64,000 bases of DNA from Candidatus Marinacidobacterales bacterium (GTDB lineage Bacteria > Acidobacteriota > Vicinamibacteria > Marinacidobacterales > SMYC01). The stretch covers positions 1 through 64,000 of the forward strand of contig CBDCYI010000004.1 of assembly GCA_965224085.1 (NCBI GenBank), read 5' to 3'. The notes beneath the pieces were generated by a model. That model had not been told where the DNA came from. It made no database searches and saw only the letters and a program-made list of their open reading frames with translations. Below, one piece after another: positions 1 through 55,173 of the stretch (its first letter is position 1; each line of letters opens with the position of its first letter). Both the position numbers and the translations under genes were made by a program.

Positions 1-1629
1 GGGTATTATACGTTTTCAGTCGGCACCTCGTAGGCTCGGAAGCGAATGAAAATCTTGGACGAAACGAGAGGCGAATCGTCAGCAATCCATGGCTATAAAC
101 GCAGTAAGAGTAATCATTATTATCGTAATAGGTGCCTTGCCATTACCAACAGGTTGCAGGTGATGATGGAACTCCATACGTAGGATTTGAAAGAAGGCAA
201 TGAGCGCCATGTGCATCGGTCGAGACCAAAGACTCGTTTCAAGAACGAAATGACGCCTTCGATTCCGCAGCGAAATCGCCGTAGGCGTTGATAGACCCAG
301 GAACTCTTGACCATATCGGTCACCGCGAAGTGAGCCTTGGTAAAGGCAACATCTTCAACTCCCTTGCCTTTGATGGCTTCCAAGTTTGCCTTTGAAGAAA
401 ACGCGCCATCGTAGGCAACCTGGCGCGGGGCCCGTTCGTAGAGTTCGACTTGACGGTCGATCATGGTTTCCGCGAGAGTTGAATCGGACGGATTCCCATC
501 CAAGATCACGCAATCCAAAATCATCGAGGACGAGCCACCAGTCAAACACACCTTGTGACCGTAGAGAGTCTCGCGCCGGTCTTTGCGAATAATGTCGGTG
601 TGTTCTTCGAAGATCGAAACGACCTTTTCCTCCGCAGGCACACGCTCTTCATCAATCACTCTACGCCGAGTTTGGTTGATGACTTTTTCGGTGAGGACGA
701 GAAAGTGCTTAAAATCCGCGGCGATCTTCTCCGCACTCGCTCGCTTCACCGGCTCGGTCAAGCCGGACTCGTCCAACTGGTCTGCAACGCGTTGAGCGGA
801 GCGATAGGTTTCTTCCGACACCTTCAGTAGATCTCGATAGACGCGACGCCTTTGTTCCTTATCCTTCGCGTTTAGAACTCCCAGTCGACGTCTCTTCGCT
901 CGACGCGTTCGATTGCCGAAGACCACTACTGTACCCAGCAGTTCGCGAGTTCGGCACATGAGGCGAGTGAGAACTCGGACGCAGTCATAAAGAAGCTCGG
1001 AGTCCGTAGGAGAATGAATATTCGACTCCACTACCGTGCAGTCCACTCGTACTTTTCTTCCTTTTTCGATCGCGGTCTTCTCGGCAACACTCACCAACTC
1101 TCGGTTGATTTTCTCCAGCGTTTCGAACTTCACGGCTTTGATGTTTGCTGCTAGGGTCGACTTCGACGGGCTCGGCTCTATGATGCCGAGCTGGCAAAAC
1201 GTCCGATAGCTTCGAGAGTCTGCCAAGTGAAACGCCAGCTCCCGATAGGTGAACTGATTCAGCTGCTTGACCAACAACGCCCGGAGAACCTGCTCCGCGC
1301 TCATTCCCCCACGACCAACATCGCTCCCTGCCGATGGGGTGACCGACCTCAGGTCTTGCAGTACCAGCTCATTCAGCTTAGGATGGGCATCGAGCAGCGA
1401 TGATATCGTTTCGAGCTCGCGTGCGTGCTCCAGCTCCAGCCAGGGCTCGCGAAGGCTTGGTTGTGGGTTGATCGTTTTTCGCATTTAGGGCTGGTCTCCT
1501 TTGGAGTTAAGTCGTTTAGAATCTGCGTTTTTGTCGACTCGATACTAAACGACACTCCCTCAGAAGGCTAGCCCTAAATTTGCGATTACCCCTTTTTTCT
1601 CAACCTCTTACACCTGTCAGGACGGGTAC
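1..1629 (-). mobile_element. IS copy 1 of the 1684-bp DDE element (IS5/IS1182/ISNCY-like); right end lies outside the window
   Basis: Reverse complement of copy 2; left end GTACCCGTCC at 1629 followed by TAGCTA (1630-1635). Confidence 0.9.
120..1484 (-). CDS. DDE transposase, 454 aa
   Basis: RVDCTVVESNIHSPTDS, YDGAF and R..IEGVISFLKR motifs typical of IS5/ISNCY-like DDE transposases; multicopy. Confidence 0.9.
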   Translation of the reverse strand: MRKTINPQPSLREPWLELEHARELETISSLLDAHPKLNELVLQDLRSVTPSAGSDVGRGGMSAEQVLRALLVKQLNQFTYRELAFHLADSRSYRTFCQLGIIEPSPSKSTLAANIKAVKFETLEKINRELVSVAEKTAIEKGRKVRVDCTVVESNIHSPTDSELLYDCVRVLTRLMCRTRELLGTVVVFGNRTRRAKRRRLGVLNAKDKEQRRRVYRDLLKVSEETYRSAQRVADQLDESGLTEPVKRASAEKIAADFKHFLVLTEKVINQTRRRVIDEERVPAEEKVVSIFEEHTDIIRKDRRETLYGHKVCLTGGSSSMILDCVILDGNPSDSTLAETMIDRQVELYERAPRQVAYDGAFSSKANLEAIKGKGVEDVAFTKAHFAVTDMVKSSWVYQRLRRFRCGIEGVISFLKRVFGLDRCTWRSLPSFKSYVWSSIITCNLLVMARHLLR

Positions 1630-3663: not shown

Positions 3664-5347
3664 GTACCCGTCCTGACAGGTGTAAGAGGTTGAGAAAAAA
3701 GGGGTAATCGCAAATTTAGGGCTAGCCTTCTGAGGGAGTGTCGTTTAGTATCGAGTCGACAAAAACGCAGATTCTAAACGACTTAACTCCAAAGGAGACC
3801 AGCCCTAAATGCGAAAAACGATCAACCCACAACCAAGCCTTCGCGAGCCCTGGCTGGAGCTGGAGCACGCACGCGAGCTCGAAACGATATCATCGCTGCT
3901 CGATGCCCATCCTAAGCTCAATGAGCTGGTACTGCAAGACCTGAGGTCGGTCACCCCATCGGCAGGGAGCGATGTTGGTCGTGGGGGAATGAGCGCGGAG
4001 CAGGTTCTCCGGGCGTTGTTGGTCAAGCAGCTGAATCAGTTCACCTATCGGGAGCTGGCGTTTCACTTGGCAGACTCTCGAAGCTATCGGACGTTTTGCC
4101 AGCTCGGCATCATAGAGCCGAGCCCGTCGAAGTCGACCCTAGCAGCAAACATCAAAGCCGTGAAGTTCGAAACGCTGGAGAAAATCAACCGAGAGTTGGT
4201 GAGTGTTGCCGAGAAGACCGCGATCGAAAAAGGAAGAAAAGTACGAGTGGACTGCACGGTAGTGGAGTCGAATATTCATTCTCCTACGGACTCCGAGCTT
4301 CTTTATGACTGCGTCCGAGTTCTCACTCGCCTCATGTGCCGAACTCGCGAACTGCTGGGTACAGTAGTGGTCTTCGGCAATCGAACGCGTCGAGCGAAGA
4401 GACGTCGACTGGGAGTTCTAAACGCGAAGGATAAGGAACAAAGGCGTCGCGTCTATCGAGATCTACTGAAGGTGTCGGAAGAAACCTATCGCTCCGCTCA
4501 ACGCGTTGCAGACCAGTTGGACGAGTCCGGCTTGACCGAGCCGGTGAAGCGAGCGAGTGCGGAGAAGATCGCCGCGGATTTTAAGCACTTTCTCGTCCTC
4601 ACCGAAAAAGTCATCAACCAAACTCGGCGTAGAGTGATTGATGAAGAGCGTGTGCCTGCGGAGGAAAAGGTCGTTTCGATCTTCGAAGAACACACCGACA
4701 TTATTCGCAAAGACCGGCGCGAGACTCTCTACGGTCACAAGGTGTGTTTGACTGGTGGCTCGTCCTCGATGATTTTGGATTGCGTGATCTTGGATGGGAA
4801 TCCGTCCGATTCAACTCTCGCGGAAACCATGATCGACCGTCAAGTCGAACTCTACGAACGGGCCCCGCGCCAGGTTGCCTACGATGGCGCGTTTTCTTCA
4901 AAGGCAAACTTGGAAGCCATCAAAGGCAAGGGAGTTGAAGATGTTGCCTTTACCAAGGCTCACTTCGCGGTGACCGATATGGTCAAGAGTTCCTGGGTCT
5001 ATCAACGCCTACGGCGATTTCGCTGCGGAATCGAAGGCGTCATTTCGTTCTTGAAACGAGTCTTTGGTCTCGACCGATGCACATGGCGCTCATTGCCTTC
5101 TTTCAAATCCTACGTATGGAGTTCCATCATCACCTGCAACCTGTTGGTAATGGCAAGGCACCTATTACGATAATAATGATTGCTCTTACTGCGTTTATAG
5201 CCATGGATTGCTGACGATTCGCCTCTCGTTTCGTCCAAGATTTTCATTCGCTTCCGAGCCTACGAGGTGCCGACTGAAAACGTATAATACCCACATCTTC
5301 GATAGGCCTCTCGTACACCACAAGTTATGGTGTTTCTGGACAGGAAC
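3664..5347 (+). mobile_element. IS copy 2 (1684 bp)
   Basis: Ends GTACCCGTCC...GGACAGGAAC; TAGCTA on both sides. Confidence 0.95.
3809..5173 (+). CDS. DDE transposase, 454 aa
   Basis: Same protein as 120..1484. Confidence 0.9.
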   Translation: MRKTINPQPSLREPWLELEHARELETISSLLDAHPKLNELVLQDLRSVTPSAGSDVGRGGMSAEQVLRALLVKQLNQFTYRELAFHLADSRSYRTFCQLGIIEPSPSKSTLAANIKAVKFETLEKINRELVSVAEKTAIEKGRKVRVDCTVVESNIHSPTDSELLYDCVRVLTRLMCRTRELLGTVVVFGNRTRRAKRRRLGVLNAKDKEQRRRVYRDLLKVSEETYRSAQRVADQLDESGLTEPVKRASAEKIAADFKHFLVLTEKVINQTRRRVIDEERVPAEEKVVSIFEEHTDIIRKDRRETLYGHKVCLTGGSSSMILDCVILDGNPSDSTLAETMIDRQVELYERAPRQVAYDGAFSSKANLEAIKGKGVEDVAFTKAHFAVTDMVKSSWVYQRLRRFRCGIEGVISFLKRVFGLDRCTWRSLPSFKSYVWSSIITCNLLVMARHLLR

Positions 5348-5353
5348 TAGCTA

Positions 5354-7037
5354 GTACCCGTCCTGGCGGACGTAAGAGGTTGAGAAAAAGGGAGTAATCG
5401 CAAATTTAGGGCTAGTCTTCTGAGGGGTTGTCGCTTAGAATCGAAGTCGTCAAAAACAAGAGTCTAAACGACTTAACTCCAAAGGAGACCAGCCCTAAAT
5501 GCGAAAAACAATCATTCCACAACCAAGCCTATGCGAGCCCTGGCTGGAGGTGGAGCACGCGCGCGAGCTCGAAGCGATCTCGTCGGTGCTCGATGCCCAT
5601 CCTAAGCTCAATGAGTTGGTACTGCAAGACCTGAGGTCGGTCACCCCATCGGCAGGGAGCGATGTTGGTCGTGGGGGAATGAGCGCGGAGCAGGTTCTCC
5701 GGGCGTTGTTGGTCAAGCAGCTGAATCAGTTCACCTATCGGGAGCTGGCGTTTCACTTGGCAGACTCTCGAAGCTATCGGACGTTTTGCCAGCTCGGCAT
5801 CATAGAGCCGAGCCCGTCGAAGTCGACCCTAGCAGCAAACATCAAAGCCGTGAAGTTCGAAACGCTGGAGAAAATCAACCGAGAGTTGGTGAGTGTTGCC
5901 GAGAAGACCGCGATCGAAAAAGGAAGAAAAGTACGAGTGGACTGCACGGTAGTGGAGTCGAATATTCATTCTCCTACGGACTCCGAGCTTCTTTATGACT
6001 GCGTCCGAGTTCTCACTCGCCTCATGTGCCGAACTCGCGAACTGCTGGGTACAGTAGTGGTCTTCGGCAATCGAACGCGTCGAGCGAAGAGACGTCGACT
6101 GGGAGTTCTAAACGCGAAGGATAAGGAACAAAGGCGTCGCGTCTATCGAGATCTACTGAAGGTGTCGGAAGAAACCTATCGCTCCGCTCAACGCGTTGCA
6201 GACCAGTTGGACGAGTCCGGCTTGACCGAGCCGGTGAAGCGAGCGAGTGCGGAGAAGATCGCCGCGGATTTTAAGCACTTTCTCGTCCTCACCGAAAAAG
6301 TCATCAACCAAACTCGGCGTAGAGTGATTGATGAAGAGCGTGTGCCTGCGGAGGAAAAGGTCGTTTCGATCTTCGAAGAACACACCGACATTATTCGCAA
6401 AGACCGGCGCGAGACTCTCTACGGTCACAAGGTGTGTTTGACTGGTGGCTCGTCCTCGATGATTTTGGATTGCGTGATCTTGGATGGGAATCCGTCCGAT
6501 TCAACTCTCGCGGAAACCATGATCGACCGTCAAGTCGAACTCTACGAACGGGCCCCGCGCCAGGTTGCCTACGATGGCGCGTTTTCTTCAAAGGCAAACT
6601 TGGAAGCCATCAAAGGCAAGGGAGTTGAAGATGTTGCCTTTACCAAGGCTCACTTCGCGGTGACCGATATGGTCAAGAGTTCCTGGGTCTATCAACGCCT
6701 ACGGCGATTTCGCTGCGGAATCGAAGGCGTCATTTCGTTCTTGAAACGAGTCTTTGGTCTCGACCGATGCACATGGCGCTCATTGCCTTCTTTCAAATCC
6801 TACGTATGGAGTTCCATCATCACCTGCAACCTGTTGGTAATGGCAAGGCACCTATTACGATAATAATGATTGCTCTTACTGCGTTTATAGCCATGGATTG
6901 CTGACGATTCGCCTCTCGTTTCGTCCAAGATTTTCATTCGCTTCCGAGCCTACGAGGTGCCGACTGAAAACGTATAATACCCACACCTTCGATAGGCCTC
7001 TCGTACACCACAAGTTATGGTGTTTCTGGACAGGAAC
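5354..7037 (+). mobile_element. IS copy 3 (1684 bp), in tandem with copy 2
   Basis: Same ends; TAGCTA at 5348-5353 and 7038-7043; variant 5' end. Confidence 0.95.
5499..6863 (+). CDS. DDE transposase, 454 aa (variant N-terminus MRKTIIPQPSLCEP)
   Basis: Near-identical to copy 2. Confidence 0.9.
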   Translation: MRKTIIPQPSLCEPWLEVEHARELEAISSVLDAHPKLNELVLQDLRSVTPSAGSDVGRGGMSAEQVLRALLVKQLNQFTYRELAFHLADSRSYRTFCQLGIIEPSPSKSTLAANIKAVKFETLEKINRELVSVAEKTAIEKGRKVRVDCTVVESNIHSPTDSELLYDCVRVLTRLMCRTRELLGTVVVFGNRTRRAKRRRLGVLNAKDKEQRRRVYRDLLKVSEETYRSAQRVADQLDESGLTEPVKRASAEKIAADFKHFLVLTEKVINQTRRRVIDEERVPAEEKVVSIFEEHTDIIRKDRRETLYGHKVCLTGGSSSMILDCVILDGNPSDSTLAETMIDRQVELYERAPRQVAYDGAFSSKANLEAIKGKGVEDVAFTKAHFAVTDMVKSSWVYQRLRRFRCGIEGVISFLKRVFGLDRCTWRSLPSFKSYVWSSIITCNLLVMARHLLR

Positions 7038-30992: not shown

Positions 30993-32479
30993 CTCAGGGT
31001 GTAGCGTTGGCAAGAGGTGTGAGAGTGACGTCAAAACCGAGCTCCCTTAGGCGTCGTGTCATTCGTATTGTGAGCTGTTCCTTGTCGCGTTGATGGAAGT
31101 AATCGGCACCCAGTTCCCGGTATGGAATCTCATTGTGGAGCATGTAGTAGACGGCGGTGATGATGGAGGCGGCGACGGCGACGACAGCTTTCTTGGAGCC
31201 CCGACGAGATTTGAGCCGGAAGAACTGGGCACGCAGATAGCTGTCGCGCTTGCGGCTTGCCGCCCAAGCGGCTTGCCGCCCAAGCGGCTTGGACAAGAGC
31301 GGTCTTGAGCCATGGAGCCCCTTTGCGGGTTTTCTGAGAAAAGCGTTTACCGGCACTCTCATGAAGCCGTGGGCATAGACCGGCCCAAGAGCGAAGGTGT
31401 CCGGCCGTTGGGAATGCCGAGACATCGGGTCCGATCTCGGCGACGAGAATGGCCGCCGTGGCTTCACTGATGCCCGGGATCGTCACCAGAAGCTCGATGG
31501 CCGATCGAAAAGGGCGCAGGCTCTCTGTGATACGGGATTCGAGCGCGCTCACTGAGGCTTCAAGCTGCTCGATATGATTGAGATGAAAACCCAACAGGAA
31601 ACGATGATGGTCGGTAACGTAGCCCTCGAGCGCTGCGCTCAATTCCTGTTCAGTGGCTTTGAGTCGGCTCGAGCCCAGCTCACTCAGCTTGTGAGGGTCG
31701 CTTTCTCCTGCAATGATCGCTCGGAGAATCGCCCGCCCGCTTACTCCCAAAATCGTGCTAATCACGCTCGTCAATTTGATGTTCGCGTCTTCCAACGTCT
31801 TTTGAATTCGCTGGGTCTCCCGAGCGATTTCTCGAACGAACTGCTTTCGCGTTCGGGTCAGCTCTCGCAGTTCCCGGATCGGCGTTGGCGGAACGAAGCT
31901 AGCTCGAATGAGACCATGGGCAAGCAAATCCGCTATCCACAAGGCATCACTGATATCGCTCTTACGACCCGGCATGTTCTTGACGTGGGCCGGTTGTGCC
32001 AACACCAACTCAAAATGACCTTCGAGCACATGCCACACCGGCTTCCAATACACTCCGGTCGCTTCCATCGCTACAATCGTGCAACCGCACTGCCCCAGCC
32101 AATCCAACATTTCCAGCAATTCGCTCGTGGCCGTGCCGAACACACGCGTCTCGCGCACCACCTTCCGCTTCGACGCTACCCGCACGCAAGCCGTAATCGA
32201 TTTCTGGTGGACGTCCAATCCGGCGCATCGCTTATGAACCACTCTCATCGCAGCCTCCTTCACGTCGCACCGGCGTGGAGCCCACGAACTTGTAATCTAA
32301 TAGACGCGCTCAACTATCCCAGCTGGAATAGAAAACGCAATTTGGGGTACGCGCAGGACTCCCAGCCAAACTTGACAACGGGCTCAGTCGCACCAACGTT
32401 AAGCCGACCTCTGAGCCGGTGCCACCTTCACAGACTACCGCGTTTCATTTATTCGGGGTGACCGCCAGGCCGTGGAAAA
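30993..32479 (-). mobile_element. IS110 element A, copy 2; transposase frameshifted, right end replaced by IS200
   Basis: Inverted near-identical copy; 16-bp tandem duplication GCGGCTTGCCGCCCAA at about 31252-31283. Confidence 0.88.
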
Positions 32480-32777
32480 CTTGACAATAACCGCGTCGAC
32501 CATGGCGGAAGCTGCATGTAGGCGACGGCGACTCCTCTGCCGCAGGCTCGCCGAAGGTCACGACGGTTTGATCTCGAAGGCCGCATCGATGCCAGCGAAT
32601 GCGAAGACTCTGGTCGCGTTCGCGGAGAGGGTCTGTCTCATTTTCTGAAGGGACACACCTCGCGCGACAGCCAGTCGCTCGGCTGTTGTGGTGGCATGCC
32701 CTGCTCCGCCTATCGCGGAGCGCCATTGGCCGAGTCACGACCAAGAGGACAACGATGGAGCCTGATCAGAAGCCTGC

Positions 32778-33548
32778 ATGCAGTGCACCCTCAAGCGCGT
32801 CTGGTCAAAATACTCGAACGCCCATCACCGCGAGAGGAATCATCAAGCCAAAGAGCTTCAAGCCGACGAGATTCGCACGTTCGCGGGCAACAAGAAGACG
32901 CCGAGTTGGGTCTTCGTTACGATCGAGGTCTGGTCTCGGCTCTGGCCATCGACGGTGACGGGAAGGCGAAGCTACCGGAACACTCACGCTCTGTTTCGCG
33001 ACCTTTCGAAGCGGATGAATTTCGGACGTCTTCCCCTGATCGTCACGGATGGATTCGAATTCTACCAGAAGGTCATCCGTCGCTTCTTCGGTCCAGCGTA
33101 TCTTTACGGCCAGGTCCTCAAGACGCGCAGGAACGGTCGTATCATCAAGGTCGAACGGAGAGCGCTGCACGGAGCCGCGTGGCGATTCGAAGACGCGCTC
33201 AATAACTCCGAGGACTCCTCAACATTGAACACGTCGTTCATCGAGCGGTTAAATCTGACCATCCGGCAAAGCTTGGCATACCTTTCGAGACGAACGCTTT
33301 CCCACGCTCGCTCGACGGAGAGGCTCGATGAGCACATGGAATTGCTCCGTTGCTATTACAACTTCGTCCGACCGCACGGAGCTCTGAAGTTCGGACGTGA
33401 GATCCGAACTCCGGCTATGCAGGCCGGTCTGACCACGCGACGGCTCACCTTTCGAGACATCTTCTTGGCGACGACGATTCCTTTGTGGCTGCGGATCGAG
33501 GTTTTCCTGCTCACTGGGGCGCGCCAACCCGGTCTCTTCCGCACCTGA
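32778..33548 (+). CDS. IS1 family transposase (5' part degenerate)
   Basis: QADEIRTF, IVTDGFEFY, TSFIERLNLTIRQ, YYNFVRPH, RTPAMQAGL. Confidence 0.8.
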   Translation: MQCTLKRVWSKYSNAHHRERNHQAKELQADEIRTFAGNKKTPSWVFVTIEVWSRLWPSTVTGRRSYRNTHALFRDLSKRMNFGRLPLIVTDGFEFYQKVIRRFFGPAYLYGQVLKTRRNGRIIKVERRALHGAAWRFEDALNNSEDSSTLNTSFIERLNLTIRQSLAYLSRRTLSHARSTERLDEHMELLRCYYNFVRPHGALKFGREIRTPAMQAGLTTRRLTFRDIFLATTIPLWLRIEVFLLTGARQPGLFRT

Positions 33549-33589
33549 ACCACTGCCCGCAGCCGCGTAGCAACATATCTGGACTCCTC

Positions 33590-33875
33590 AATCAACACCT
33601 TTCTCAAAAAAGTCTTCCTCAGAGCTGCTCGTCCAAATCGGTGACGAGTGGGTCAGACTGCAAACATATCTACGGCCTCAGTGAGGAGCGTCTTGGGTGC
33701 TCCGGGCCATGACGGAAAATCCGCGCGCGAGGAGCCAATCACTTTGAGCGACCTCTGAGGGCCAGTGTTGCTATCGGCTTGACCCCGCGCCGGTCCGACC
33801 GGTACGCCATCAGTTGGAAGGGTATCGTCGCAGCCTCTGTTGGAAGGGAAGAAGGAAAACACGAGAGTGGAGCCT
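33590..33875 (-). ncRNA. Putative seek/bridge RNA region of element B
   Basis: Contains TCAAG and TAGCAACACT (target matches) plus CCGTCAT and AGATATG (donor-junction matches). Confidence 0.6.
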
Positions 33876-34910
33876 CTATGCGGCCGCGGGCACCGACTGG
33901 AATTCACTCTCGCGGGTGGAGACGGCCCAGACTATCCGGGCGAGTTTGTTGGCGACAGCAATCGCGGCTTTGTTGTGTCCCCGCGAGCGGTGGACCTTCC
34001 GCGCCCAGGCGCGGAGCTTGTCGGGCGGGCTCTTGCTGACGTTGGCCGCTCGGAGCACGGCGCGTCCGCCCTGCGTGAGGAGCGTACGGAGGTAGGAGTC
34101 GCCACGCTTGGTGATGCGCCCGAGGCGGCGAATGTCACCACTGGAGTTCTCTTTGGGAACGAGGCCGAGGTAACTCGAGAAGCGGCGTCCCGATGGGAAG
34201 CGGCGCAGATCCCCAACGAAGCCGACGATGGCGGTCGCGGTCAAAAGTCCGATGCCGGGAATGGTGAGAAGTCGTTGCACCTCAGGAAGCTGCTTGGCGA
34301 GCGCCTTGAGCTCGTGCTCGATGCCAGCGCACTTGTCCTTGAGCTCTCGAATCTCGGAGCACGCATCACGCAGGTGCGGACGGAGCACGTCGGGCAAATC
34401 AGAATCAGCGTCTTCGACGAGCTCGGAGATGGCGGGCACGACGAAGTGAGCGCCCTTGGGGATGAAGAGTCCGAGCTCGCGCAGGACCCCGCGTACGGCA
34501 TTGATGCGTGCGGTTCGTGTGGAGAGCCATCCTGAGCGTAGGCGATGGAGCGCGGCGAGGGTGTGCTGGCGCACGGACTTGATGGGCACCGAAAGAATCT
34601 CCTCGTTCCGGTAAGCCTCGAGCAAAGCTTTGGTGTCCGCGCGGTCGTTCTTGCTCCCGCGTCGATACGGCCTTACGAGGTGAGGTGGGAGCAGGACGAC
34701 GTCGTGTCCCAACCGTCGCAACGTCCTTGCCCAAAAGTGAGCCGAGCCGCAGGCTTCGAGAAGCACGGTGGCAGCGCTCTGTTTCGCAAAAAACGACACC
34801 AACTTGGGTCGACTCACACGGAGTTGCTTGGACACCTTCCCCGCTTCGCGCGAGATGGCAATCTCGAAGACGTTCTTTGCAAGACCCACAGCGATCGTCG
34901 TATCTTTCAT
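33876..34910 (-). CDS. IS110 (IS1111-type) recombinase; first catalytic Asp appears changed to Gly
   Basis: TIAVGLAK (TIAVDLAK in the 54.9-kb copy), LLEACG, KNDRADT, YLGLVPKENSSG, ITKRGD. Confidence 0.88.
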   Translation of the reverse strand: MKDTTIAVGLAKNVFEIAISREAGKVSKQLRVSRPKLVSFFAKQSAATVLLEACGSAHFWARTLRRLGHDVVLLPPHLVRPYRRGSKNDRADTKALLEAYRNEEILSVPIKSVRQHTLAALHRLRSGWLSTRTARINAVRGVLRELGLFIPKGAHFVVPAISELVEDADSDLPDVLRPHLRDACSEIRELKDKCAGIEHELKALAKQLPEVQRLLTIPGIGLLTATAIVGFVGDLRRFPSGRRFSSYLGLVPKENSSGDIRRLGRITKRGDSYLRTLLTQGGRAVLRAANVSKSPPDKLRAWARKVHRSRGHNKAAIAVANKLARIVWAVSTRESEFQSVPAAA

Positions 34911-35487
34911 TCGGACTCCTCCTTTTTCGATGCGTTCTTTCGACTGACTTTGGCACATCGATGCCGTCTATGTCAGCGGAGGAGTCCATCCCATCACTTG
35001 ATGGCGGAAGCACCCAGCGAGGAGTCCGCGGTCGCTTTGCTGTTTGGGCTTATCGCCTCTGGCCAGATTCAACTACGACGCATCGACGGCTACCAACGTC
35101 TGAGCGAGGTTCTCGAACACGCGGAGGTTGCCGCCTGATATGATACTCTGATGACGGAGTAGAGGGTGCTGTTCTTTTTCCACGGACCTCGGGACACATC
35201 CCAAAAACTAGGCCCTTTTGAAATAGACCATGAATCAGCAGCTTAGTGTCTGTGTTTGCGCCCGGGCCAAGGGCCTAGCTCTGCTCCATGGTTGTCGCGG
35301 GCCCCACCGTCCACGCTGCATCGACTGTTCGCTTGTAATGTTGCCAGTGAATCAAGTTTTGGCACAGGACGCCGGGGTCCCGGTACGCCGTGGTACCCGC
35401 ACCGATCCGCGTGATATATTCTTGGGTCCGGAAACCGATGCAACGTGTCCACGGAGTTGAGAAAGGCCAAGAACTTGGGAGGTTTCA

Positions 35488-36078
35488 ATGAAAGACAATA
35501 GAATGATTGCCGAGTTGATATCGGAGTTTGTAGCACAGTTGGAGAAGCAGCTGCATGAGCTAAATTCACGAATTACTACTGTTCTTGCTGAGCCGGAGGC
35601 TTCTGAACCGGAGGCTGCCGAGCCAGAGGCTGCCGAGCCAGAGGCTTCTGAGCCAGAGGCTGCTGAGCCGGAGGCTGCTGAACCGGAGGCTGCCGAGCCA
35701 GAGGCTTCTGAGCCAGAGGCTGCTGAGCCGGAGGCTGCTGAACCGGAGGCTTCTGAGCCAGAGGTTGCTGAGCCAGAGGCTGCTGAGCCGGAGGCTGCTG
35801 AGCCGGAGGCTGCTGAGCCGGAGGCTGCTGAGCCGGAGACTTCTGAGCCGGAGGCTGCTGAGCCGGAGGCTGCTGAGCCGGAGGCTGCTGAGCCGGAGGC
35901 TGCTGAGCCGGAGGCTGCTGAGCCGGAGACTTCTGAGCCGGAGGCTGCTGAGCCGGAGACTTCTGAGCCGGAGGCTGCTGAGCCGGAGGCTGCTGAGCCG
36001 GAGACTTCTGAGCCAGAGACTTCTGAGCCAGAGGTAGACGATGGCGATTCGCAATCCCAGGAAGACCGCGCAAAGTAA
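35488..36078 (+). CDS. Short helical leader plus about 30 EPE(A/T/V)(A/S) pentapeptide repeats
   Basis: GGAGG RBS; 15-bp tandem repeats; C-terminus [15 protein letters not shown] identical to the bactofilin tail. Confidence 0.7.
35590..36035 (+). repeat. 15-bp coding tandem repeat (GAGCCRGAGGCTGCT)n
   Basis: Directly visible; about 30 units. Confidence 0.95.
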
Positions 36079-36119
36079 TGGACGGCAATAGAACTGAGAC
36101 AGGGGATAGGCGTTAGTGC

Positions 36120-36701
36120 ATGAAACCTGTGATCCGCAAAAAAGAAGATCGCGTGCCGCCTGGATCGACTTTTTGCGGAGCACAGGAGGTGCCAACGGGC
36201 GAGGGAGATGTTGGCGAACGGGTTGCTACCCTTGAACAGTCCTTCGCCAGCGAGTCGATGATGCACCACTACAACCTATCGACGCGCCACGTGTTCCAGA
36301 CGCGACGCTCGGATATTCGCTCCGAGACGTTGGCTGCGTTGCAGTCCAACATCGAGGTGGCCACCAGCGGGCAAGCGGTGCCGTTACCCGGATTCCCCGA
36401 ATACTTTCTAAGCATCAGGAACACCTGGGTCGGCGCAGTGGGGTGGCTCATCCAGGGACCCGAGCACCGGGTCATGGTTCAGTGCGTGACAGCCTGGACG
36501 ATTGAGGGCGCAGCAAAGGGCGTGCGCTGGTTGGGGGCGGAGCTACCGGAGGAGTTGGACTTGCCTTGTTGTCTGGTCAAGCTTGGACTACCCCTGCTTA
36601 AGGATCCCGGTGCGGCAAGTTGGCTTGATGATGCCGAGCGGTGCATTAGCTGGGCGATGCTACCCACGCCTCCTCTTGGCAATGGCACAGGGTCGCCCTG
36701 A
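36120..36701 (+). pseudogene. Hypothetical protein, paralog of 29633..30268; 5' end replaced by a MITE
   Basis: Homology starts at about 36185, directly after the short MITE at 36128-36184. Confidence 0.6.
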
Positions 36702-43022: not shown

Positions 43023-43737
43023 AGTGATTGATGAAGAGCGTGTGCCTGCGGAGGAAAAGGTCGTTTCGATCTTCGAAGAACACACCGACATTATTCGCAA
43101 AGACCGGCGCGAGACTCTCTACGGTCACAAGGTGTGTTTGACTGGTGGCTCGTCCTCGATGATTTTGGATTGCGTGATCTTGGATGGGAATCCGTCCGAT
43201 TCAACTCTCGCGGAAACCATGATCGACCGTCAAGTCGAACTCTACGAACGGGCCCCGCGCCAGGTTGCCTACGATGGCGCGTTTTCTTCAAAGGCAAACT
43301 TGGAAGCCATCAAAGGCAAGGGAGTTGAAGATGTTGCCTTTACCAAGGCTCACTTCGCGGTGACCGATATGGTCAAGAGTTCCTGGGTCTATCAACGCCT
43401 ACGGCGATTTCGCTGCGGAATCGAAGGCGTCATTTCGTTCTTGAAACGAGTCTTTGGTCTCGACCGATGCACATGGCGCTCATTGCCTTCTTTCAAATCC
43501 TACGTATGGAGTTCCATCATCACCTGCAACCTGTTGGTAATGGCAAGGCACCTATTACGATAATAATGATTACTCTTACTGCGTTTATAGCCATGGATTG
43601 CTGACGATTCGCCTCTCGTTTCGTCCAAGATTTTCATTCGCTTCCGAGCCTACGAGGTGCCGACTGAAAACGTATAATACCCACATCTTCGATAGGCCTC
43701 TCGTACACCACAAGTTATGGTGTTTCTGGACAGGAAC
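43023..43737 (+). mobile_element. IS copy 4, 5'-truncated
   Basis: Identical to the 3' part of the 1684-bp element; followed by TAGTTA. Confidence 0.9.
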
Positions 43738-43743
43738 TAGTTA

Positions 43744-45427
43744 GTACCCGTCCTGGCGGACGTAAGAGGTTGAGAAAAAGGGAGTAATCGCAAATTTAGG
43801 GCTAGTCTTCTGAGGGGTTGTCGCTTAGAATCGAAGTCGTCAAAAACAAGAGTCTAAACGACTTAACTCCAAAGGAGACCAGCCCTAAATGCGAAAAACA
43901 ATCATTCCACAACCAAGCCTATGCGAGCCCTGGCTGGAGCTGGAGCACGCACGCGAACTCGAAGCGATCTCGTCGGTGCTCGATGCCCATCCTAAGCTCA
44001 ATGAGCTGGTACTGCAAGACCTGAGGTCGGTCACCCCATCGGCAGGGAGCGATGTTGGTCGTGGGGGAATGAGCGCGGAGCAGGTTCTCCGGGCGTTGTT
44101 GGTCAAGCAGCTGAATCAGTTCACCTATCGGGAGCTGGCGTTTCACTTGGCAGACTCTCGAAGCTATCGGACGTTTTGCCAGTTCGGCATCATAGAGCCG
44201 AGCCCGTCGAAGTCGACCCTAGCAGCAAACATCAAAGCCGTGAAGTTCGAAACGCTGGAGAAAATCAACCGAGAGTTGGTGAGTGTTGCCGAGAAGACCG
44301 CGATCGAAAAAGGAAGAAAAGTACGAGTGGACTGCACGGTAGTGGAGTCGAATATTCATTCTCCTACGGACTCCGAGCTTCTTTATGACTGCGTCCGAGT
44401 TCTCACTCGCCTCATGTGCCGAACTCGCGAACTGCTGGGTACAGTAGTGGTCTTCGGCAATCGAACGCGTCGAGCGAAGAGACGTCGACTGGGAGTTCTA
44501 AACGCGAAGGATAAGGAACAAAGGCGTCGCGTCTATCGAGATCTACTGAAGGTGTCGGAAGAAACCTATCGCTCCGCTCAACGCGTTGCAGACCAGTTGG
44601 ACGAGTCCGGCTTGACCGAGCCGGTGAAGCGAGCGAGTGCGGAGAAGATCGCCGCGGATTTTAAGCACTTTCTCGTCCTCACCGAAAAAGTCATCAACCA
44701 AACTCGGCGTAGAGTGATTGATGAAGAGCGTGTGCCTGCGGAGGAAAAGGTCGTTTCGATCTTCGAAGAACACACCGACATTATTCGCAAAGACCGGCGC
44801 GAGACTCTCTACGGTCACAAGGTGTGTTTGACTGGTGGCTCGTCCTCGATGATTTTGGATTGCGTGATCTTGGATGGGAATCCGTCCGATTCAACTCTCG
44901 CGGAAACCATGATCGACCGTCAAGTCGAACTCTACGAACGGGCCCCGCGCCAGGTTGCCTACGATGGCGCGTTTTCTTCAAAGGCAAACTTGGAAGCCAT
45001 CAAAGGCAAGGGAGTTGAAGATGTTGCCTTTACCAAGGCTCACTTCGCGGTGACCGATATGGTCAAGAGTTCCTGGGTCTATCAACGCCTACGGCGATTT
45101 CGCTGCGGAATCGAAGGCGTCATTTCGTTCTTGAAACGAGTCTTTGGTCTCGACCGATGCACATGGCGCTCATTGCCTTCTTTCAAATCCTACGTATGGA
45201 GTTCCATCATCACCTGCAACCTGTTGGTAATGGCAAGGCACCTATTACGATAATAATGATTACTCTTACTGCGTTTATAGCCATGGATTGCTGACGATTC
45301 GCCTCTCGTTTCGTCCAAGATTTTCATTCGCTTCCGAGCCTACGAGGTGCCGACTGAAAACGTATAATACCCACATCTTCGATAGGCCTCTCGTACACCA
45401 CAAGTTATGGTGTTTCTGGACAGGAAC
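43744..45427 (+). mobile_element. IS copy 5 (1684 bp)
   Basis: TAGTTA on both sides. Confidence 0.95.
43889..45253 (+). CDS. DDE transposase, 454 aa
   Basis: Near-identical to the other copies. Confidence 0.9.
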   Translation: MRKTIIPQPSLCEPWLELEHARELEAISSVLDAHPKLNELVLQDLRSVTPSAGSDVGRGGMSAEQVLRALLVKQLNQFTYRELAFHLADSRSYRTFCQFGIIEPSPSKSTLAANIKAVKFETLEKINRELVSVAEKTAIEKGRKVRVDCTVVESNIHSPTDSELLYDCVRVLTRLMCRTRELLGTVVVFGNRTRRAKRRRLGVLNAKDKEQRRRVYRDLLKVSEETYRSAQRVADQLDESGLTEPVKRASAEKIAADFKHFLVLTEKVINQTRRRVIDEERVPAEEKVVSIFEEHTDIIRKDRRETLYGHKVCLTGGSSSMILDCVILDGNPSDSTLAETMIDRQVELYERAPRQVAYDGAFSSKANLEAIKGKGVEDVAFTKAHFAVTDMVKSSWVYQRLRRFRCGIEGVISFLKRVFGLDRCTWRSLPSFKSYVWSSIITCNLLVMARHLLR

Positions 45428-47568: not shown

Positions 47569-49252
47569 GTTCCTGTCCAGAAACACCATAACTTGTGGTG
47601 TACGAGAGGCCTATCGAAGATGTGGGTATTATACGTTTTCAGTCGGCACCTCGTAGGCTCGGAAGCGAATGAAAATCTTGGACGAAACGAGAGGCGAATC
47701 GTCAGCAATCCATGGCTATAAACGCAGTAAGAGCAATCATTATTATCGTAATAGGTGCCTTGCCATTACCAACAGGTTGCAGGTGATGATGGAACTCCAT
47801 ACGTAGGATTTGAAAGAAGGCAATGAGCGCCATGTGCATCGGTCGAGACCAAAGACTCGTTTCAAGAACGAAATGACGCCTTCGATTCCGCAGCGAAATC
47901 GCCGTAGGCGTTGATAGACCCAGGAACTCTTGACCATATCGGTCACCGCGAAGTGAGCCTTGGTAAAGGCAACATCTTCAACTCCCTTGCCTTTGATGGC
48001 TTCCAAGTTTGCCTTTGAAGAAAACGCGCCATCGTAGGCAACCTGGCGCGGGGCCCGTTCGTAGAGTTCGACTTGACGGTCGATCATGGTTTCCGCGAGA
48101 GTTGAATCGGACGGATTCCCATCCAAGATCACGCAATCCAAAATCATCGAGGACGAGCCACCAGTCAAACACACCTTGTGACCGTAGAGAGTCTCGCGCC
48201 GGTCTTTGCGAATAATGTCGGTGTGTTCTTCGAAGATCGAAACGACCTTTTCCTCCGCAGGCACACGCTCTTCATCAATCACTCTACGCCGAGTTTGGTT
48301 GATGACTTTTTCGGTGAGGACGAGAAAGTGCTTAAAATCCGCGGCGATCTTCTCCGCACTCGCTCGCTTCACCGGCTCGGTCAAGCCGGACTCGTCCAAC
48401 TGGTCTGCAACGCGTTGAGCGGAGCGATAGGTTTCTTCCGACACCTTCAGTAGATCTCGATAGACGCGACGCCTTTGTTCCTTATCCTTCGCGTTTAGAA
48501 CTCCCAGTCGACGTCTCTTCGCTCGACGCGTTCGATTGCCGAAGACCACTACTGTACCCAGCAGTTCGCGAGTTCGGCACATGAGGCGAGTGAGAACTCG
48601 GACGCAGTCATAAAGAAGCTCGGAGTCCGTAGGAGAATGAATATTCGACTCCACTACCGTGCAGTCCACTCGTACTTTTCTTCCTTTTTCGATCGCGGTC
48701 TTCTCGGCAACACTCACCAACTCTCGGTTGATTTTCTCCAGCGTTTCGAACTTCACGGCTTTGATGTTTGCTGCTAGGGTCGACTTCGACGGGCTCGGCT
48801 CTATGATGCCGAGCTGGCAAAACGTCCGATAGCTTCGAGAGTCTGCCAAGTGAAACGCCAGCTCCCGATAGGTGAACTGATTCAGCTGCTTGACCAACAA
48901 CGCCCGGAGAACCTGCTCCGCGCTCATTCCCCCACGACCAACATCGCTCCCTGCCGATGGGGTGACCGACCTCAGGTCTTGCAGTACCAGCTCATTGAGC
49001 TTAGGATGGGCATCGAGCACCGACGAGATCGTTTCGAGCTCGCGCGCGTGCTCCACCTCCAGCCAGGGCTCGCATAGGCTTGGTTGTGGAATGATTGTTT
49101 TTCGCATTTAGGGCTGGTCTCCTTTGGAGTTAAGTCGTTTAGACTCTTGTTTTTGACGACTTCGATTCTAAGCGACAACCCCTCAGAAGACTAGCCCTAA
49201 ATTTGCGATTACTCCCTTTTTCTCAACCTCTTACGTCCGCCAGGACGGGTAC
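47569..49252 (-). mobile_element. IS copy 6 (1684 bp)
   Basis: TAATTA on both sides (47563-47568, 49253-49258). Confidence 0.95.
47743..49107 (-). CDS. DDE transposase, 454 aa
   Basis: Near-identical to the other copies. Confidence 0.9.
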   Translation of the reverse strand: MRKTIIPQPSLCEPWLEVEHARELETISSVLDAHPKLNELVLQDLRSVTPSAGSDVGRGGMSAEQVLRALLVKQLNQFTYRELAFHLADSRSYRTFCQLGIIEPSPSKSTLAANIKAVKFETLEKINRELVSVAEKTAIEKGRKVRVDCTVVESNIHSPTDSELLYDCVRVLTRLMCRTRELLGTVVVFGNRTRRAKRRRLGVLNAKDKEQRRRVYRDLLKVSEETYRSAQRVADQLDESGLTEPVKRASAEKIAADFKHFLVLTEKVINQTRRRVIDEERVPAEEKVVSIFEEHTDIIRKDRRETLYGHKVCLTGGSSSMILDCVILDGNPSDSTLAETMIDRQVELYERAPRQVAYDGAFSSKANLEAIKGKGVEDVAFTKAHFAVTDMVKSSWVYQRLRRFRCGIEGVISFLKRVFGLDRCTWRSLPSFKSYVWSSIITCNLLVMARHLLR

Positions 49253-54552: not shown

Positions 54553-54759
54553 TTGGCGCTATTGCACGATTCAACCCGTGAGACGGAGCTGAACCGCCCC
54601 GGGTTTTTCGGAGACTGTTTTAGTTGAGTCTCGCCATCTCTAGCGAGCCTTCCTGCGACCGATAGTAGTTCATCTGGTGCTTCCGCCATTAAGTGTTGGT
54701 GAGATGATGCTAAGACATTACGGTGCATTTAATTACAGCCAATAGCGCTCGTGACCTTC

Positions 54760-55046
54760 CCAACCGTCGCAACGTCCTTGCCCAGAAGTGAGCCGAGCCG
54801 CAGGCTTCGAGAAGCACGGTGGCAGCGCTCTGTTTCGCAAAAAACGACACCAACTTGGGTCGACTCACACGGAGTTGCTTGGACACCTTCCCCGCTTCGC
54901 GCGAGATGGCAATCTCGAAGACGTTCTTTGCAAGATCCACAGCGATCGTCGTATCTTTCATTCGGACTCCTCCTTTTTCGATGCGTTCTTTCGACTGACT
55001 TTGGCACATCGATGCCGTCTATGTCAGCGGAGGAGTCCATCCCATC
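54760..55046 (-). mobile_element. IS110 element B, 5' fragment
   Basis: Near-identical to 34710-34995; the same IS1-like repeat flanks it (CTTGATAGCGGAAGCACC). Confidence 0.85.
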
Positions 55047-55173
55047 ACTTGATAGCGGAAGCACCGGCACAGGACGGGATGGCGATGCGAGACGATCGGT
55101 CAGGAGCATACTGCGGATCATCTCGTGCGACTCACCGTAGCAACTTTCGCCTAGCCGTTATAATCGGGGCCCC

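What the first reader, a model, noticed from the sequence alone, without database searches (positions are those of the whole stretch)
33549..35014. IS1111-type element targets the terminal repeat of an IS1-family element, with readable guides
Seen: the flanks rejoin (minus strand) to GGTGCTTCCGCCATCAAG-TG-TTGCTA. This is the end of the IS1-like element and matches uninterrupted repeats elsewhere (e.g. 54676). The partial copy at 55 kb has the same flank. The 3' non-coding region contains TCAAG (33778-33782) and TAGCAACACT (33764-33773, a 10-nt complement of the target). It also contains AGATATG (33665-33671) and CCGTCAT (33709-33715), matching the predicted circle junction CAGATATGATGG. Established: IS110/IS1111 elements use bridge/seek RNAs, and IS4321 targets Tn21 IRs. 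Inference: an RNA-guided parasite of IS1 ends.
Basis: partly seen in the sequence, partly recalled or inferred. Interest (0 to 1): 0.78.

Follow-up and report, generated by a model that had tools for sequence, protein, structure and literature searches.

The report
RNA-guided IS inside an IS1-like end
A 1.4-kb IS1111-type insertion sequence, carried here as a copy with a dead transposase, sits precisely inside the terminal repeat of an IS1-like element, and its guide RNA matches that site, which makes it a natural retargeting of a known RNA-guided system and not a new mechanism.

Summary
An IS110-family element of the IS1111 type lies on the minus strand at 33576-34996 (1421 bp), not 33549-35014. 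It splits the right terminal repeat of a truncated IS1-like element. A sponge metagenome DNA run holds the exact empty site.

About 150 nt of its 3' non-coding region (33651-33800) is a conserved two-loop RNA. This RNA was found in 143 hits across 162 sequences and also in the named element ISPa25. Both sides of loop 1 covary with the elements' own flanks (0 of 5000 shuffles in either test).

The two donor matches (33709-33715, 33665-33671) are the two sides of loop 2. The real left guide is CUCAAAGUG (33740-33748).

The target is a ~12-nt motif, TCAAG-TG-TTGCT. In this genome 5 of 11 left junctions lie in IS1-like ends and 6 lie elsewhere.

The window copy carries Gly for the first catalytic Asp. 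Five other copies look intact.

Most relatives sit at GTTAG-type sites that are partly attC-like, so this lineage was retargeted. Verdict: a new member of a known kind, of moderate interest.

The parts
33576..34996 (-). IS1111-type insertion sequence, 1421 bp. The dinucleotide TG is shared with the target, so 33574-34994 is equally valid.
   Evidence: Ends were defined by comparing 11 left and 17 right ends in the genome and by the empty-site joint that skips 1421 bases.
33876..34910 (-). Transposase gene, 344 aa plus stop. Codon 9 (34884-34886, GGT) encodes Gly where the family has the first Asp of the DEDD motif.
   Evidence: Pfam PF01548 and PF02371. NCBIfam NF033542 at 300 bits, above its cut-off of 140. 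Alignment A1. Codon position.
34911..34996 (-). Left end, 86 nt non-coding, with the left sub-terminal inverted repeat TGGACTCCTCC at 34978-34988.
33580..33589 (-). Right sub-terminal inverted repeat GAGGAGTCCA (10 of 11 complementary to the left one), followed by the terminal GATA.
33651..33800 (-). Conserved ~150-nt seekRNA / bridge-like RNA: a closing stem (33793-33800 with 33651-33658) that encloses two stem-loops, each with an internal loop.
   Evidence: nhmmer conservation. Alignment A2 and pair counts: 79.5% of cells paired against 71.0 +/- 0.6 shuffled, and covariation 0.273 against 0.141, with 0 of 500 shuffles as high.
33765..33773 (-). Loop 1, 5' side: UAGCAACAC. [quoted passage not shown]
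   Evidence: Matches the target. At the family level, own flank scores 4.73 of 6 against 2.84 +/- 0.11, with 0 of 5000 shuffles as high, n=71.
33740..33748 (-). Loop 1, 3' side: CUCAAAGUG. [quoted passage not shown]
   Evidence: At the family level, own flank scores 3.81 of 6 against 1.93 +/- 0.12, with 0 of 5000 shuffles as high, n=80. The window copy matches 3 of 6 plus the core in fixed register.
33709..33715 (-). Loop 2, 5' side: CCGUCAU. This guide pairs with the joined ends A-TG-ATGG (6 Watson-Crick pairs plus one G.T).
   Evidence: The 94% relative L002 has CCAUCAU, a perfect match.
33665..33671 (-). Loop 2, 3' side: AGAUAUG, identical to the right end AGATA plus TG.
   Evidence: This side covaries with right-end variants AGATA, ATATA, ATACC and ATACA across loci.
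33778..33782 (-). It is the bulge plus the first pairs of stem P2, so it is scaffold and not a guide.
   Evidence: No covariation with left flanks. The same CAAGCCGA occurs in L024 and L055, which have other targets.
34997..35014 (-). Outer 18 bp of the IS1-like right terminal repeat (the left half of the target).
32853..33575 (+). 3' fragment of an IS1-like element. It aligns to positions 462-1033 of the intact 1207-bp copy at 81.5%. Its last 14 nt, 33562-33575, are the inner part of the right repeat (the right half of the target).
   Evidence: The ORF at 32778-33548 hits PF03400. The intact relative L081 scores 35.7 bits on PF03400 and 84.5 bits on NCBIfam IS1.
54758..55065 (-). Partial second copy (left end plus the first 74 codons), with the same IS1-like repeat flank at 55048-55065.

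Best explanation
This is one of about nine near-identical copies of an IS1111-type, RNA-guided insertion sequence in an IS-rich genome. The relatives named in the searches are Candidatus Marinacidobacterales, and the runs that hold the sequence are sponge metagenomes.

The region just 3' of the transposase gene encodes a ~150-nt RNA with two internal loops. Loop 1 reads the target. Its 5' side (UAGCAACAC) pairs with the top strand over G-TG-TTGCTA. Its 3' side (CUCAAAGUG) pairs with the bottom strand over the left flank plus TG. Loop 2 reads the element's own joined ends: CCGUCAU for A-TG-ATGG and AGAUAUG for AGATA-TG.

The DEDD/Ser recombinase then exchanges strands at the shared TG. This inserts the element in one orientation with no duplication.

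The motif TCAAG-TG-TTGCT(A) occurs in the right terminal repeat of a local IS1-like family, so that repeat is the commonest landing site. It is not the only one.

The window copy cannot act on its own, because its first catalytic Asp is replaced by Gly. It keeps intact ends and guide RNA, so intact sister copies could move it in trans.

Shown here: the anatomy, the precise insertion and empty site, the conserved RNA structure, the guide-flank covariation, and the D9G change. Inferred: transcription of the RNA, its binding to the enzyme, the circular intermediate, mobilisation in trans, and inactivation of the IS1-like host.
For: - Family: Pfam PF01548 and PF02371. NCBIfam IS110 RNA-guided transposase at 300 bits. 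The closest named element is ISPa25 at 47% aa identity. ISPa25 has the same RNA scaffold (nhmmer E 9.5e-29).
- Ends: 11 left and 17 right ends were compared. The empty-site joint skips 1421 bases.
- RNA: the non-coding region is conserved down to about 40% protein identity. In the tested structure 26 of 40 pairs change on both sides, and covariation is 0.273 against 0.141, with 0 of 500 shuffles as high. Slid controls give 0.07-0.15.
- Guides: both sides of loop 1 covary with the elements' own flanks. The guide order, top-strand match 5' of bottom-strand match, is the order reported for IS1111 seekRNAs (PMC11187229, sections 4 and 9 read).
- A normally conserved guide position changed together with its target. 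UAAC became UAGC where GTTA became GCTA in the window lineage, L008 and L015. L020 has UAGG with CCTA.
- Non-IS1 sites in this genome carry the same motif: TTCAAG-TG-TTGCTT and ATCAAG-TG-TTGCTG.
- Relatives in two other genomes also sit in IS1-like repeats (L001-L003, L048).
- The host repeats differ in sequence: TTGCTACGCGGC, ATGCTACGGCGG, TGGCTACGCTGC, TTGGTACGCC. The insertions are therefore independent events.
Against: - No RNA evidence exists for the guide region. RNA-library contigs cover 33363-33702 and parts of the gene, but none covers 33703-33838, and such contigs may be DNA carry-over.
- Rfam has no matching family.
- The whole 303-nt non-coding region does not fold better than shuffles (z = -0.73). 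Only the comparative structure is significant.
- The window's left guide matches only AAG+TG in the family's fixed register (3 of 6). It needs a bulged A to explain the conserved C at -4 (10 of 11 sites) and T at -5 (8 of 11).
- The window's loop-2 5' guide has a G.T and further mismatches to the left end.
- One copy (C4:999254) has a right flank, AGTAAGC, that fits the guide poorly.
- Sequences in the covariation tests are related by descent, so the shuffle counts are not true probabilities.
Confidence: 0.85

Rival explanations
1. The element is a dedicated RNA-guided parasite of IS1 ends, and its left-target guide is the TCAAG at 33778-33782 next to TAGCAACACT.
For: TCAAG is present 4 nt upstream of the 10-nt complement. 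In this genome 5 of 11 left junctions lie in IS1-like repeats, as do all 4 close relatives examined in other genomes.
Against: That segment is scaffold. It forms a bulge plus stem P2 and shows no covariation with left flanks (1.42 against 1.48 +/- 0.08). The same CAAGCCGA occurs in L024 and L055, which have other targets. Six of 11 left junctions lie outside IS1-like elements.
Confidence: 0.08
2. Hitch-hiking. One ancient insertion into an IS1-like end was then spread by transposition or duplication of the composite, so the repeated IS1 context says nothing about targeting.
For: Several junctions share the identical outer 18 bp. The region is full of nested and rearranged repeats.
Against: The IS copies are 98-99% identical. 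Their IS1-like hosts are 78-95% identical to each other and carry different inner repeats. Sequence outside the outer repeat differs at all five loci. Non-IS1 sites carry the same 12-nt motif.
Confidence: 0.05
3. The transposase protein alone recognises the site, and the RNA-target matches are coincidental.
For: On its own, the 10-nt match in the window is only moderately unusual (58 of 3000 shuffles).
Against: Loop sequences change with flank sequences across 71 and 80 distinct guides. Experiments on relatives show the RNA is required and programmable (PMC11187229, sections 8-10 read).
Confidence: 0.02

Closest known systems
ISPa25, ISKpn4 and ISPst6 (IS1111-family elements that target attC sites; seekRNA shown for ISKpn4 and ISPst6, predicted for ISPa25)
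   Same: ISPa25 is 47% identical in protein. It has the same two-loop RNA scaffold (nhmmer E 9.5e-29), the same sub-terminal repeat GGAGTCC/GGACTCC and the same left-end start TGATGGAATGG. Its guide order is top-strand match first (PMC11187229, section 9).
   Different: The target differs. ISPa25 here lies between GACCTTGAG and CGACTTGTTAGCC, next to integron cassettes. The window lineage reads TCAAG-TG-TTGCTA in an IS1-like repeat, with UAGC in place of UAAC and UG in place of CG in both 3' guides.
[quoted passage not shown]
   Same: An IS1111-type element that lands, in one orientation, inside the terminal repeat of another mobile element. This rests on the title of Partridge and Hall 2003, seen only in a reference list, and otherwise on recall.
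   Different: The host is an IS1-like insertion sequence, not a Tn3/Tn21-family transposon. No sequence comparison with IS4321 or IS5075 was made here.
IS621 bridge RNA (IS110 group)
   Same: Two internal loops, one for the target and one for the donor. Each loop has one side for each DNA strand, overlapping at a core dinucleotide (PMC11208160, passages).
   Different: The RNA lies 3' of the gene and not in the left end. The strand order within each loop is reversed. The sub-terminal repeats are long. The core is TG/CG, not CT. There is no Rfam hit.
ISEc11 and ISXne4 (natural reprogramming of a seekRNA)
   Same: Close relatives keep the RNA stems but change the loop bases together with the target (PMC11187229, section 10).
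   Different: Here the change is from GTTAG-type sites to the end of an insertion sequence, and it is documented only by comparison of sequences.

Membership tests
IS110 family, IS1111 group | DEDD RuvC-like N-terminal domain plus the PF02371 C-terminal domain with an SG motif | tested here: met
   PF01548 at 39 bits and PF02371 at 90 bits. NF033542 at 300 bits against a cut-off of 140. E52, D89, D92, S257 and G258 are invariant in A1.
IS110 family, IS1111 group | All four catalytic DEDD residues present in this copy | tested here: not met
   Residue 9 is Gly, codon GGT at 34884-34886. Of 8 full-length gene copies in the genome, 2 carry Gly (the window and C4:1283738) and 6 carry Asp. One of those 6 has an internal stop.
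IS110 family, IS1111 group | Long non-coding region downstream of the transposase gene and a short left end | tested here: met
   300 nt lie 3' of the stop (33576-33875) and 86 nt lie 5' (34911-34996). The rule is from PMC11187229, section 6.
IS110 family, IS1111 group | Sub-terminal inverted repeats of 7-17 bp | tested here: met
   TGGACTCCTCC (34978-34988) pairs with GAGGAGTCCA (33580-33589), 10 of 11. The range is from PMC11208160.
IS110 family, IS1111 group | Terminal extensions beyond the repeats of 7 (or 6) bp on the left and 3 bp on the right | tested here: not met
   With the 1421-bp element and the 11-bp repeat, the extensions are 8/4, 7/5 or 6/6, depending on where the shared TG is assigned. 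The rule is quoted from PMC11187229, section 4. The result depends on how the repeat is delimited.
IS110 family, IS1111 group | Site- and orientation-specific insertion without target duplication | tested here: met
   All 5 IS1-like junctions have the outer repeat on the left-end side. The empty site has a single TG. In the relative L015 the empty site CTTTCACCA-CG-GGCTGCTA occurs 3 times.
seekRNA / bridge RNA | Structured RNA whose loop bases match both strands of the target, with the top-strand match 5' of the bottom-strand match in IS1111 elements | tested here: met
   Structure. Guide-flank covariation.
seekRNA / bridge RNA | The RNA is made and bound by the transposase and is required for movement | not testable with these tools
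   Only Logan contigs of RNA libraries were available. None covers 33703-33838.
seekRNA / bridge RNA | Match to a curated RNA family | tested here: not met
   Rfam 15 gave no match at E up to 1 over 33000-35500.
IS1 family (the host element) | IS1-type DDE transposase | tested here: inconclusive
   The intact relative L081 (368 aa) scores 35.7 bits on PF03400, above its cut-off of 24.1. It scores 84.5 bits on NCBIfam NF033558, below its cut-off of 100. The window fragment scores 26.1 bits on PF03400.
IS1 family (the host element) | Terminal inverted repeats that bound a ~0.8-1.2 kb element | tested here: met
   C4:505269-506475 is 1207 bp and is bounded by GGTGCTTCCGC... on both strands. Likeness to the E. 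coli IS1 repeat (GGTG...) is recalled and was not tested.
attC-targeting IS1111 subgroup | Insertion at the GTTRRRY end of an attC site | tested here: not met
   The window target is GTGTTGCTACGC inside an IS1-like repeat. Among relatives, 38 of 92 right flanks fit GTTRRRY, 53 of 92 hold GTTAG, and 24 of 92 have RYYYAAC within 90 nt on the left, against 5 of 92 in the backwards control. The attC consensus is recalled.

The most novel reading that the evidence does not exclude
The lineage acts as a hyperparasite that disables a resident IS1-like family, and the two are in a guide-against-repeat arms race. Both right repeats that carry the exact motif are occupied (the window and C5:1892272). 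Surviving intact IS1-like copies carry CGAT in place of CAAG, or TTGGTG in place of TTGCTA, at guide-paired positions. Relatives in other genomes have landed in repeat variants with one mismatch. If so, RNA-guided insertion sequences could police other transposons and would shape the evolution of their terminal repeats.
Probability: 0.15. Interest if true: 0.6.

Novelty: new member of a known kind. Interest (0 to 1): 0.4.

Why it matters
This adds a third class of mobile-element target, the end of an IS1-like insertion sequence, to the targets known for IS1111-type elements (REP sequences, attC sites and Tn21-family repeats).

It is also a clean natural example of retargeting. A conserved RNA scaffold is shared with ISPa25, a few loop bases are changed, and a base that is conserved in most relatives changes together with its target.

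The alignment of about 140 RNAs with their flanks is a ready data set for the pairing rules of this clade. It includes one oddity. Both bottom-strand guides end in CG, yet the left junction nearly always reads TG.

This does not reveal a new mechanism. The specific copy in the window is a dead one.

Tried and rejected
- Rfam scan of 33000-35500 at E up to 1: nothing.
- Single-sequence fold of the whole 303-nt non-coding region: not better than shuffles (z = -0.73). The local two-hairpin fold only became convincing with homologs.
- RNAalifold consensus on A2 gave only 20 pairs. I replaced it with a hand-drawn 40-pair structure and tested that.
- A loose regular expression for the whole RNA returned mostly false matches (238 rows) and was dropped for a profile-HMM alignment.
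- RNA evidence: runs X15, X16 and X18 are contigs of RNA libraries. They cover parts of the element, but nothing lies over 33703-33838. No starts, ends or strand can be read, and DNA carry-over is possible. I draw no conclusion on expression.
- No circle-junction joint was listed. Contigs drop rare forms, so this says nothing.
- The intermediate relatives L082 (80%) and L083 (74%) have no recognisable right end within the DNA held, so the step-by-step path of retargeting could not be traced.
- The attC reading of the relatives' targets holds for only part of them and rests on a recalled consensus. No integron context was checked, apart from the annotated ISPa25 locus.
- The identical run of 7 at 33829-33835 lies outside the conserved RNA and is taken as chance.
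- Supplementary files of the two key papers (the seekRNA folds for ISPa25 and ISKpn4, and the bridge-RNA models for IS1111 elements) could not be seen. They may already show this scaffold.
- No literature search for 'IS1111-type element in an IS1 end' was completed. One search listed nothing on it and one search failed, so I do not claim it is absent from print.
- The correct count is 16 Asp, 1 Glu and 1 Gly.
Full report
WHAT IS THERE

The stretch holds a 344-codon gene on the minus strand (33876-34910). It carries both IS110-family Pfam domains and scores 300 bits on the NCBIfam model 'IS110 family RNA-guided transposase'.

I compared 11 left ends and 17 right ends. In transposase orientation the element begins at TGATGGGATGGACTCC and ends at GAGGAGTCCAGATA, and it is followed by TG.

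It therefore spans 33576-34996, which is 1421 bp, with the TG assignable to either end. The element has 11-bp sub-terminal inverted repeats (10 of 11 complementary), an 86-nt left end and a 300-nt region 3' of the gene. That is the IS1111 layout described in PMC11187229 (section 6).

THE INSERTION SITE

The left flank is GGTGCTTCCGCCATCAAG. The right flank is TG-TTGCTACGCGGC.

These are the two parts of the right terminal repeat of an IS1-like element. An intact relative of that element lies at C4:505269-506475. It is 1207 bp long with a single 368-aa ORF. It scores 35.7 bits on Pfam PF03400, above threshold. It scores 84.5 bits on the NCBIfam IS1 model, below its cut-off of 100.

The copy in the window is only the 3' fragment, 32853-33575 plus 34997-35014.

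Laying contigs of four public runs gave a joint 33573->34995 that skips 1421 bases with 2 ambiguous bases. It stands in a sponge-metagenome DNA run at depth 86, against about 9-23 over the element. It also stands in one RNA-library contig. The uninterrupted site therefore exists in nature, and the insertion is precise and without duplication. The shorter side of that joint is only 20 nt, because the repeat ends there.

IS THE TARGET THE IS1-LIKE END?

Partly.
- Five of 11 left junctions in this genome abut the outer 18 bp of an IS1-like repeat, always in the same orientation.
- Four loci of close relatives (94-99% protein identity) in two other genomes do the same.
- The host repeats differ in sequence: TTGCTACGCGGC, ATGCTACGGCGG, TGGCTACGCTGC, TTGGTACGCC. 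The host elements are only 78-95% alike, while the inserts are 98-99% alike. These are therefore separate hits, not one composite that spread.
- Six of 11 left junctions lie elsewhere. Where both flanks can be read, they rejoin to TTCAAG-TG-TTGCTT and ATCAAG-TG-TTGCTG.
- Two further copies landed inside the transposase gene of other copies.

The recognised unit is therefore about 12 nt, TCAAG-TG-TTGCT. The exact 12-mer is left unoccupied only twice in the genome, and neither copy is in an IS1-like end. The left-end repeats of the IS1-like family (TTGGTG) and the intact right ends (CGAT in place of CAAG) are unoccupied.

THE RNA

Rfam has no match, and the whole non-coding region does not fold unusually well.

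However, nhmmer with the non-coding region finds its positions of about 62-240 conserved downstream of homologous transposases, down to about 40% protein identity. A profile built from 40 of them finds 150 hits in 162 sequences. Of these, 143 have all four anchor positions.

The alignment (A2) shows a fixed scaffold. A closing stem encloses two stem-loops, and each stem-loop has an internal loop. I tested a 40-pair structure on A2.
- 79.5% of cells are paired, against 71.0 +/- 0.6 in shuffles.
- 26 pairs change on both sides.
- The covariation score is 0.273 against 0.141, with 0 of 500 shuffles as high.
- Controls with the partner slid by 1-3 columns give 0.07-0.15.

The named element ISPa25 is the closest named relative found, at 47% identity. 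It has the same scaffold at E 9.5e-29. PMC11187229 (section 9) states that ISPa25 targets an attC site and has a predicted seekRNA like those sequenced for ISKpn4 and ISPst6.

THE GUIDES

The two sides of loop 1 are the hypervariable parts of the alignment.

I took 6 variable bases of the 5' side, reverse-complemented them and compared them with each element's own right flank. I allowed three registers and used one row per distinct guide (n=71). The mean match is 4.73 of 6, against 2.84 +/- 0.11 when flanks are shuffled among elements, with 0 of 5000 shuffles as high.

I then compared the 6 bases of the 3' side that precede its last two bases with the own left flank, in a fixed register (n=80). 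The mean match is 3.81, against 1.93 +/- 0.12, again with 0 of 5000 as high. The first, smaller set of 35 elements gave the same picture.

The elements are related by descent, so these counts overstate independence. Even so, perfect 9-nt matches of quite different sequences occur in L006, L009, L013, L020, L029/L045 and L046.

The order, top-strand match 5' of bottom-strand match, is the order reported for IS1111 seekRNAs. It is the reverse of IS621.

In the window:
- The 5' side is UAGCAACAC (33765-33773).
- The 3' side is CUCAAAGUG (33740-33748). In the family register it matches AAG plus TG. With one A bulged it matches UCA-AG-UG. That would account for the conserved C at -4 (10 of 11 sites) and T at -5 (8 of 11). 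This step is inferred.
It shows no covariation (1.42 against 1.48 +/- 0.08).

Loop 2 is far more conserved. Its 3' side tracks the right-end variants AGATA, ATATA, ATACC and ATACA. Its 5' side is complementary to A-TG-ATGG of the joined ends.

RETARGETING

Most relatives lie between ...TTGAA or ...GCAA on the left and CG-nnnnGTTAGGC on the right.
- 53 of 92 distinct sites hold GTTAG.
- 38 of 92 fit GTTRRRY.
- 24 of 92 have RYYYAAC within 90 nt to the left, against 5 of 92 in a backwards control.

Together with the ISPa25 locus beside integron cassettes, this points to attC-like sites for part of the clade. The consensus is recalled and the integron context was not checked.

The window lineage differs by UAGC in place of the usual UAAC, matched by GCTA in place of GTTA in the target. 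It also differs in the other loop bases, and both 3' guides carry UG in place of CG. The same UAGC/GCTA pairing recurs in L008 and L015, and L020 has UAGG with CCTA. This is natural reprogramming of the kind described for ISEc11 and ISXne4.

THE ENZYME

Residue 9 is Gly in the window copy and in one other copy. Of the 18 homologs aligned with it, 16 have Asp, 1 has Glu and 1 has Gly. E52, D89, D92 and the S257-G258 motif are invariant.

Of 8 full-length gene copies in the genome, 6 carry Asp. One of those 6 has a stop codon, which leaves five that look intact. The window copy is thus most likely dead as an enzyme source. It keeps its ends and its RNA.

AN UNEXPLAINED DETAIL

- In 76 of 80 distinct elements the left junction reads TG.
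- The 3' guide of loop 1 ends in CG in 71 of 80. The 3' guide of loop 2 ends in CG in 71 of 71.
- The right junction starts with CG in 43 of 71.
- In the genome of L015 the empty target is CTTTCACCA-CG-GGCTGCTA, present three times.

The target therefore holds one CG, and the T at the left junction travels with the element. Either the loop-2 guide faces the joined ends with a mismatch, or it reads the integrated right junction. In the window lineage every one of these positions is T or U, so nothing is mismatched. I could not resolve this.

VERDICT

One of the four proposed guides is misplaced, the boundaries are too wide, and the target definition is too narrow. The mechanism is known. The target class and the documented retargeting are new as far as I could see, although I completed no dedicated literature search.

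Papers:
- PMC11187229: outline and sections 4, 6, 8, 9, 10 and 13 read.
- PMC11208160: passages only.
- All others: search listings only.
- Supplements were closed.

Noticed in passing
G000 C5:1163646-1163752, C9:514548-515086, C4:1232880-1232945, C11:839649-839700; L001:3536-4928: Head-to-tail arrays of right-end pieces of the element, with a ~46-nt unit ending in GGAGTCCAGATATG. In L001 the whole ~300-nt non-coding region is repeated four times. Each unit starts just after an internal TG or CG, as if the right end had recombined with pseudo-targets inside the element.
   Followed up: partly
G000 C9:653255 and C9:515891: The right flanks of two copies are transposase coding sequence of the same element, at sites CCAG-TG-GTGAC and CTGCG-TG-ATGCG. 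These are self-insertions or rearrangements.
   Followed up: partly
family-wide (loci L001-L161): The left junction reads TG in 76 of 80 elements. Both bottom-strand guides end in CG (71 of 80 and 71 of 71). The empty target of L015 holds a single CG. This is a fixed asymmetry at the first core position, unlike the matched core described for IS621.
   Followed up: partly
window 31130-32263 (-): A second, unrelated IS110-family transposase ORF of 377 aa (PF01548 at 99 bits, PF02371 at 82 bits). The adjacent 32301-32486 is repeated at least 10 times in the genome.
   Followed up: no
window 35352-36269: Long open frames on both strands made of Ser/Gly/Ala/Glu repeats ([12 protein letters not shown]...), which indicates a tandem DNA repeat.
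   Followed up: no
window 35014-35200: Directly outside the IS1-like end another repeat family begins, with at least 12 copies at 94-98% in the genome. The IS1-like element itself therefore sits in a repeat.
   Followed up: no
window 299-310, 4983-4994, 6673-6684, 43373-43384, 45063-45074, 47922-47933 and dozens more in G000: The 38-mer around GGTCAAGAGTTCCTGG recurs many times, often 1690 nt apart. This is another high-copy element.
   Followed up: no
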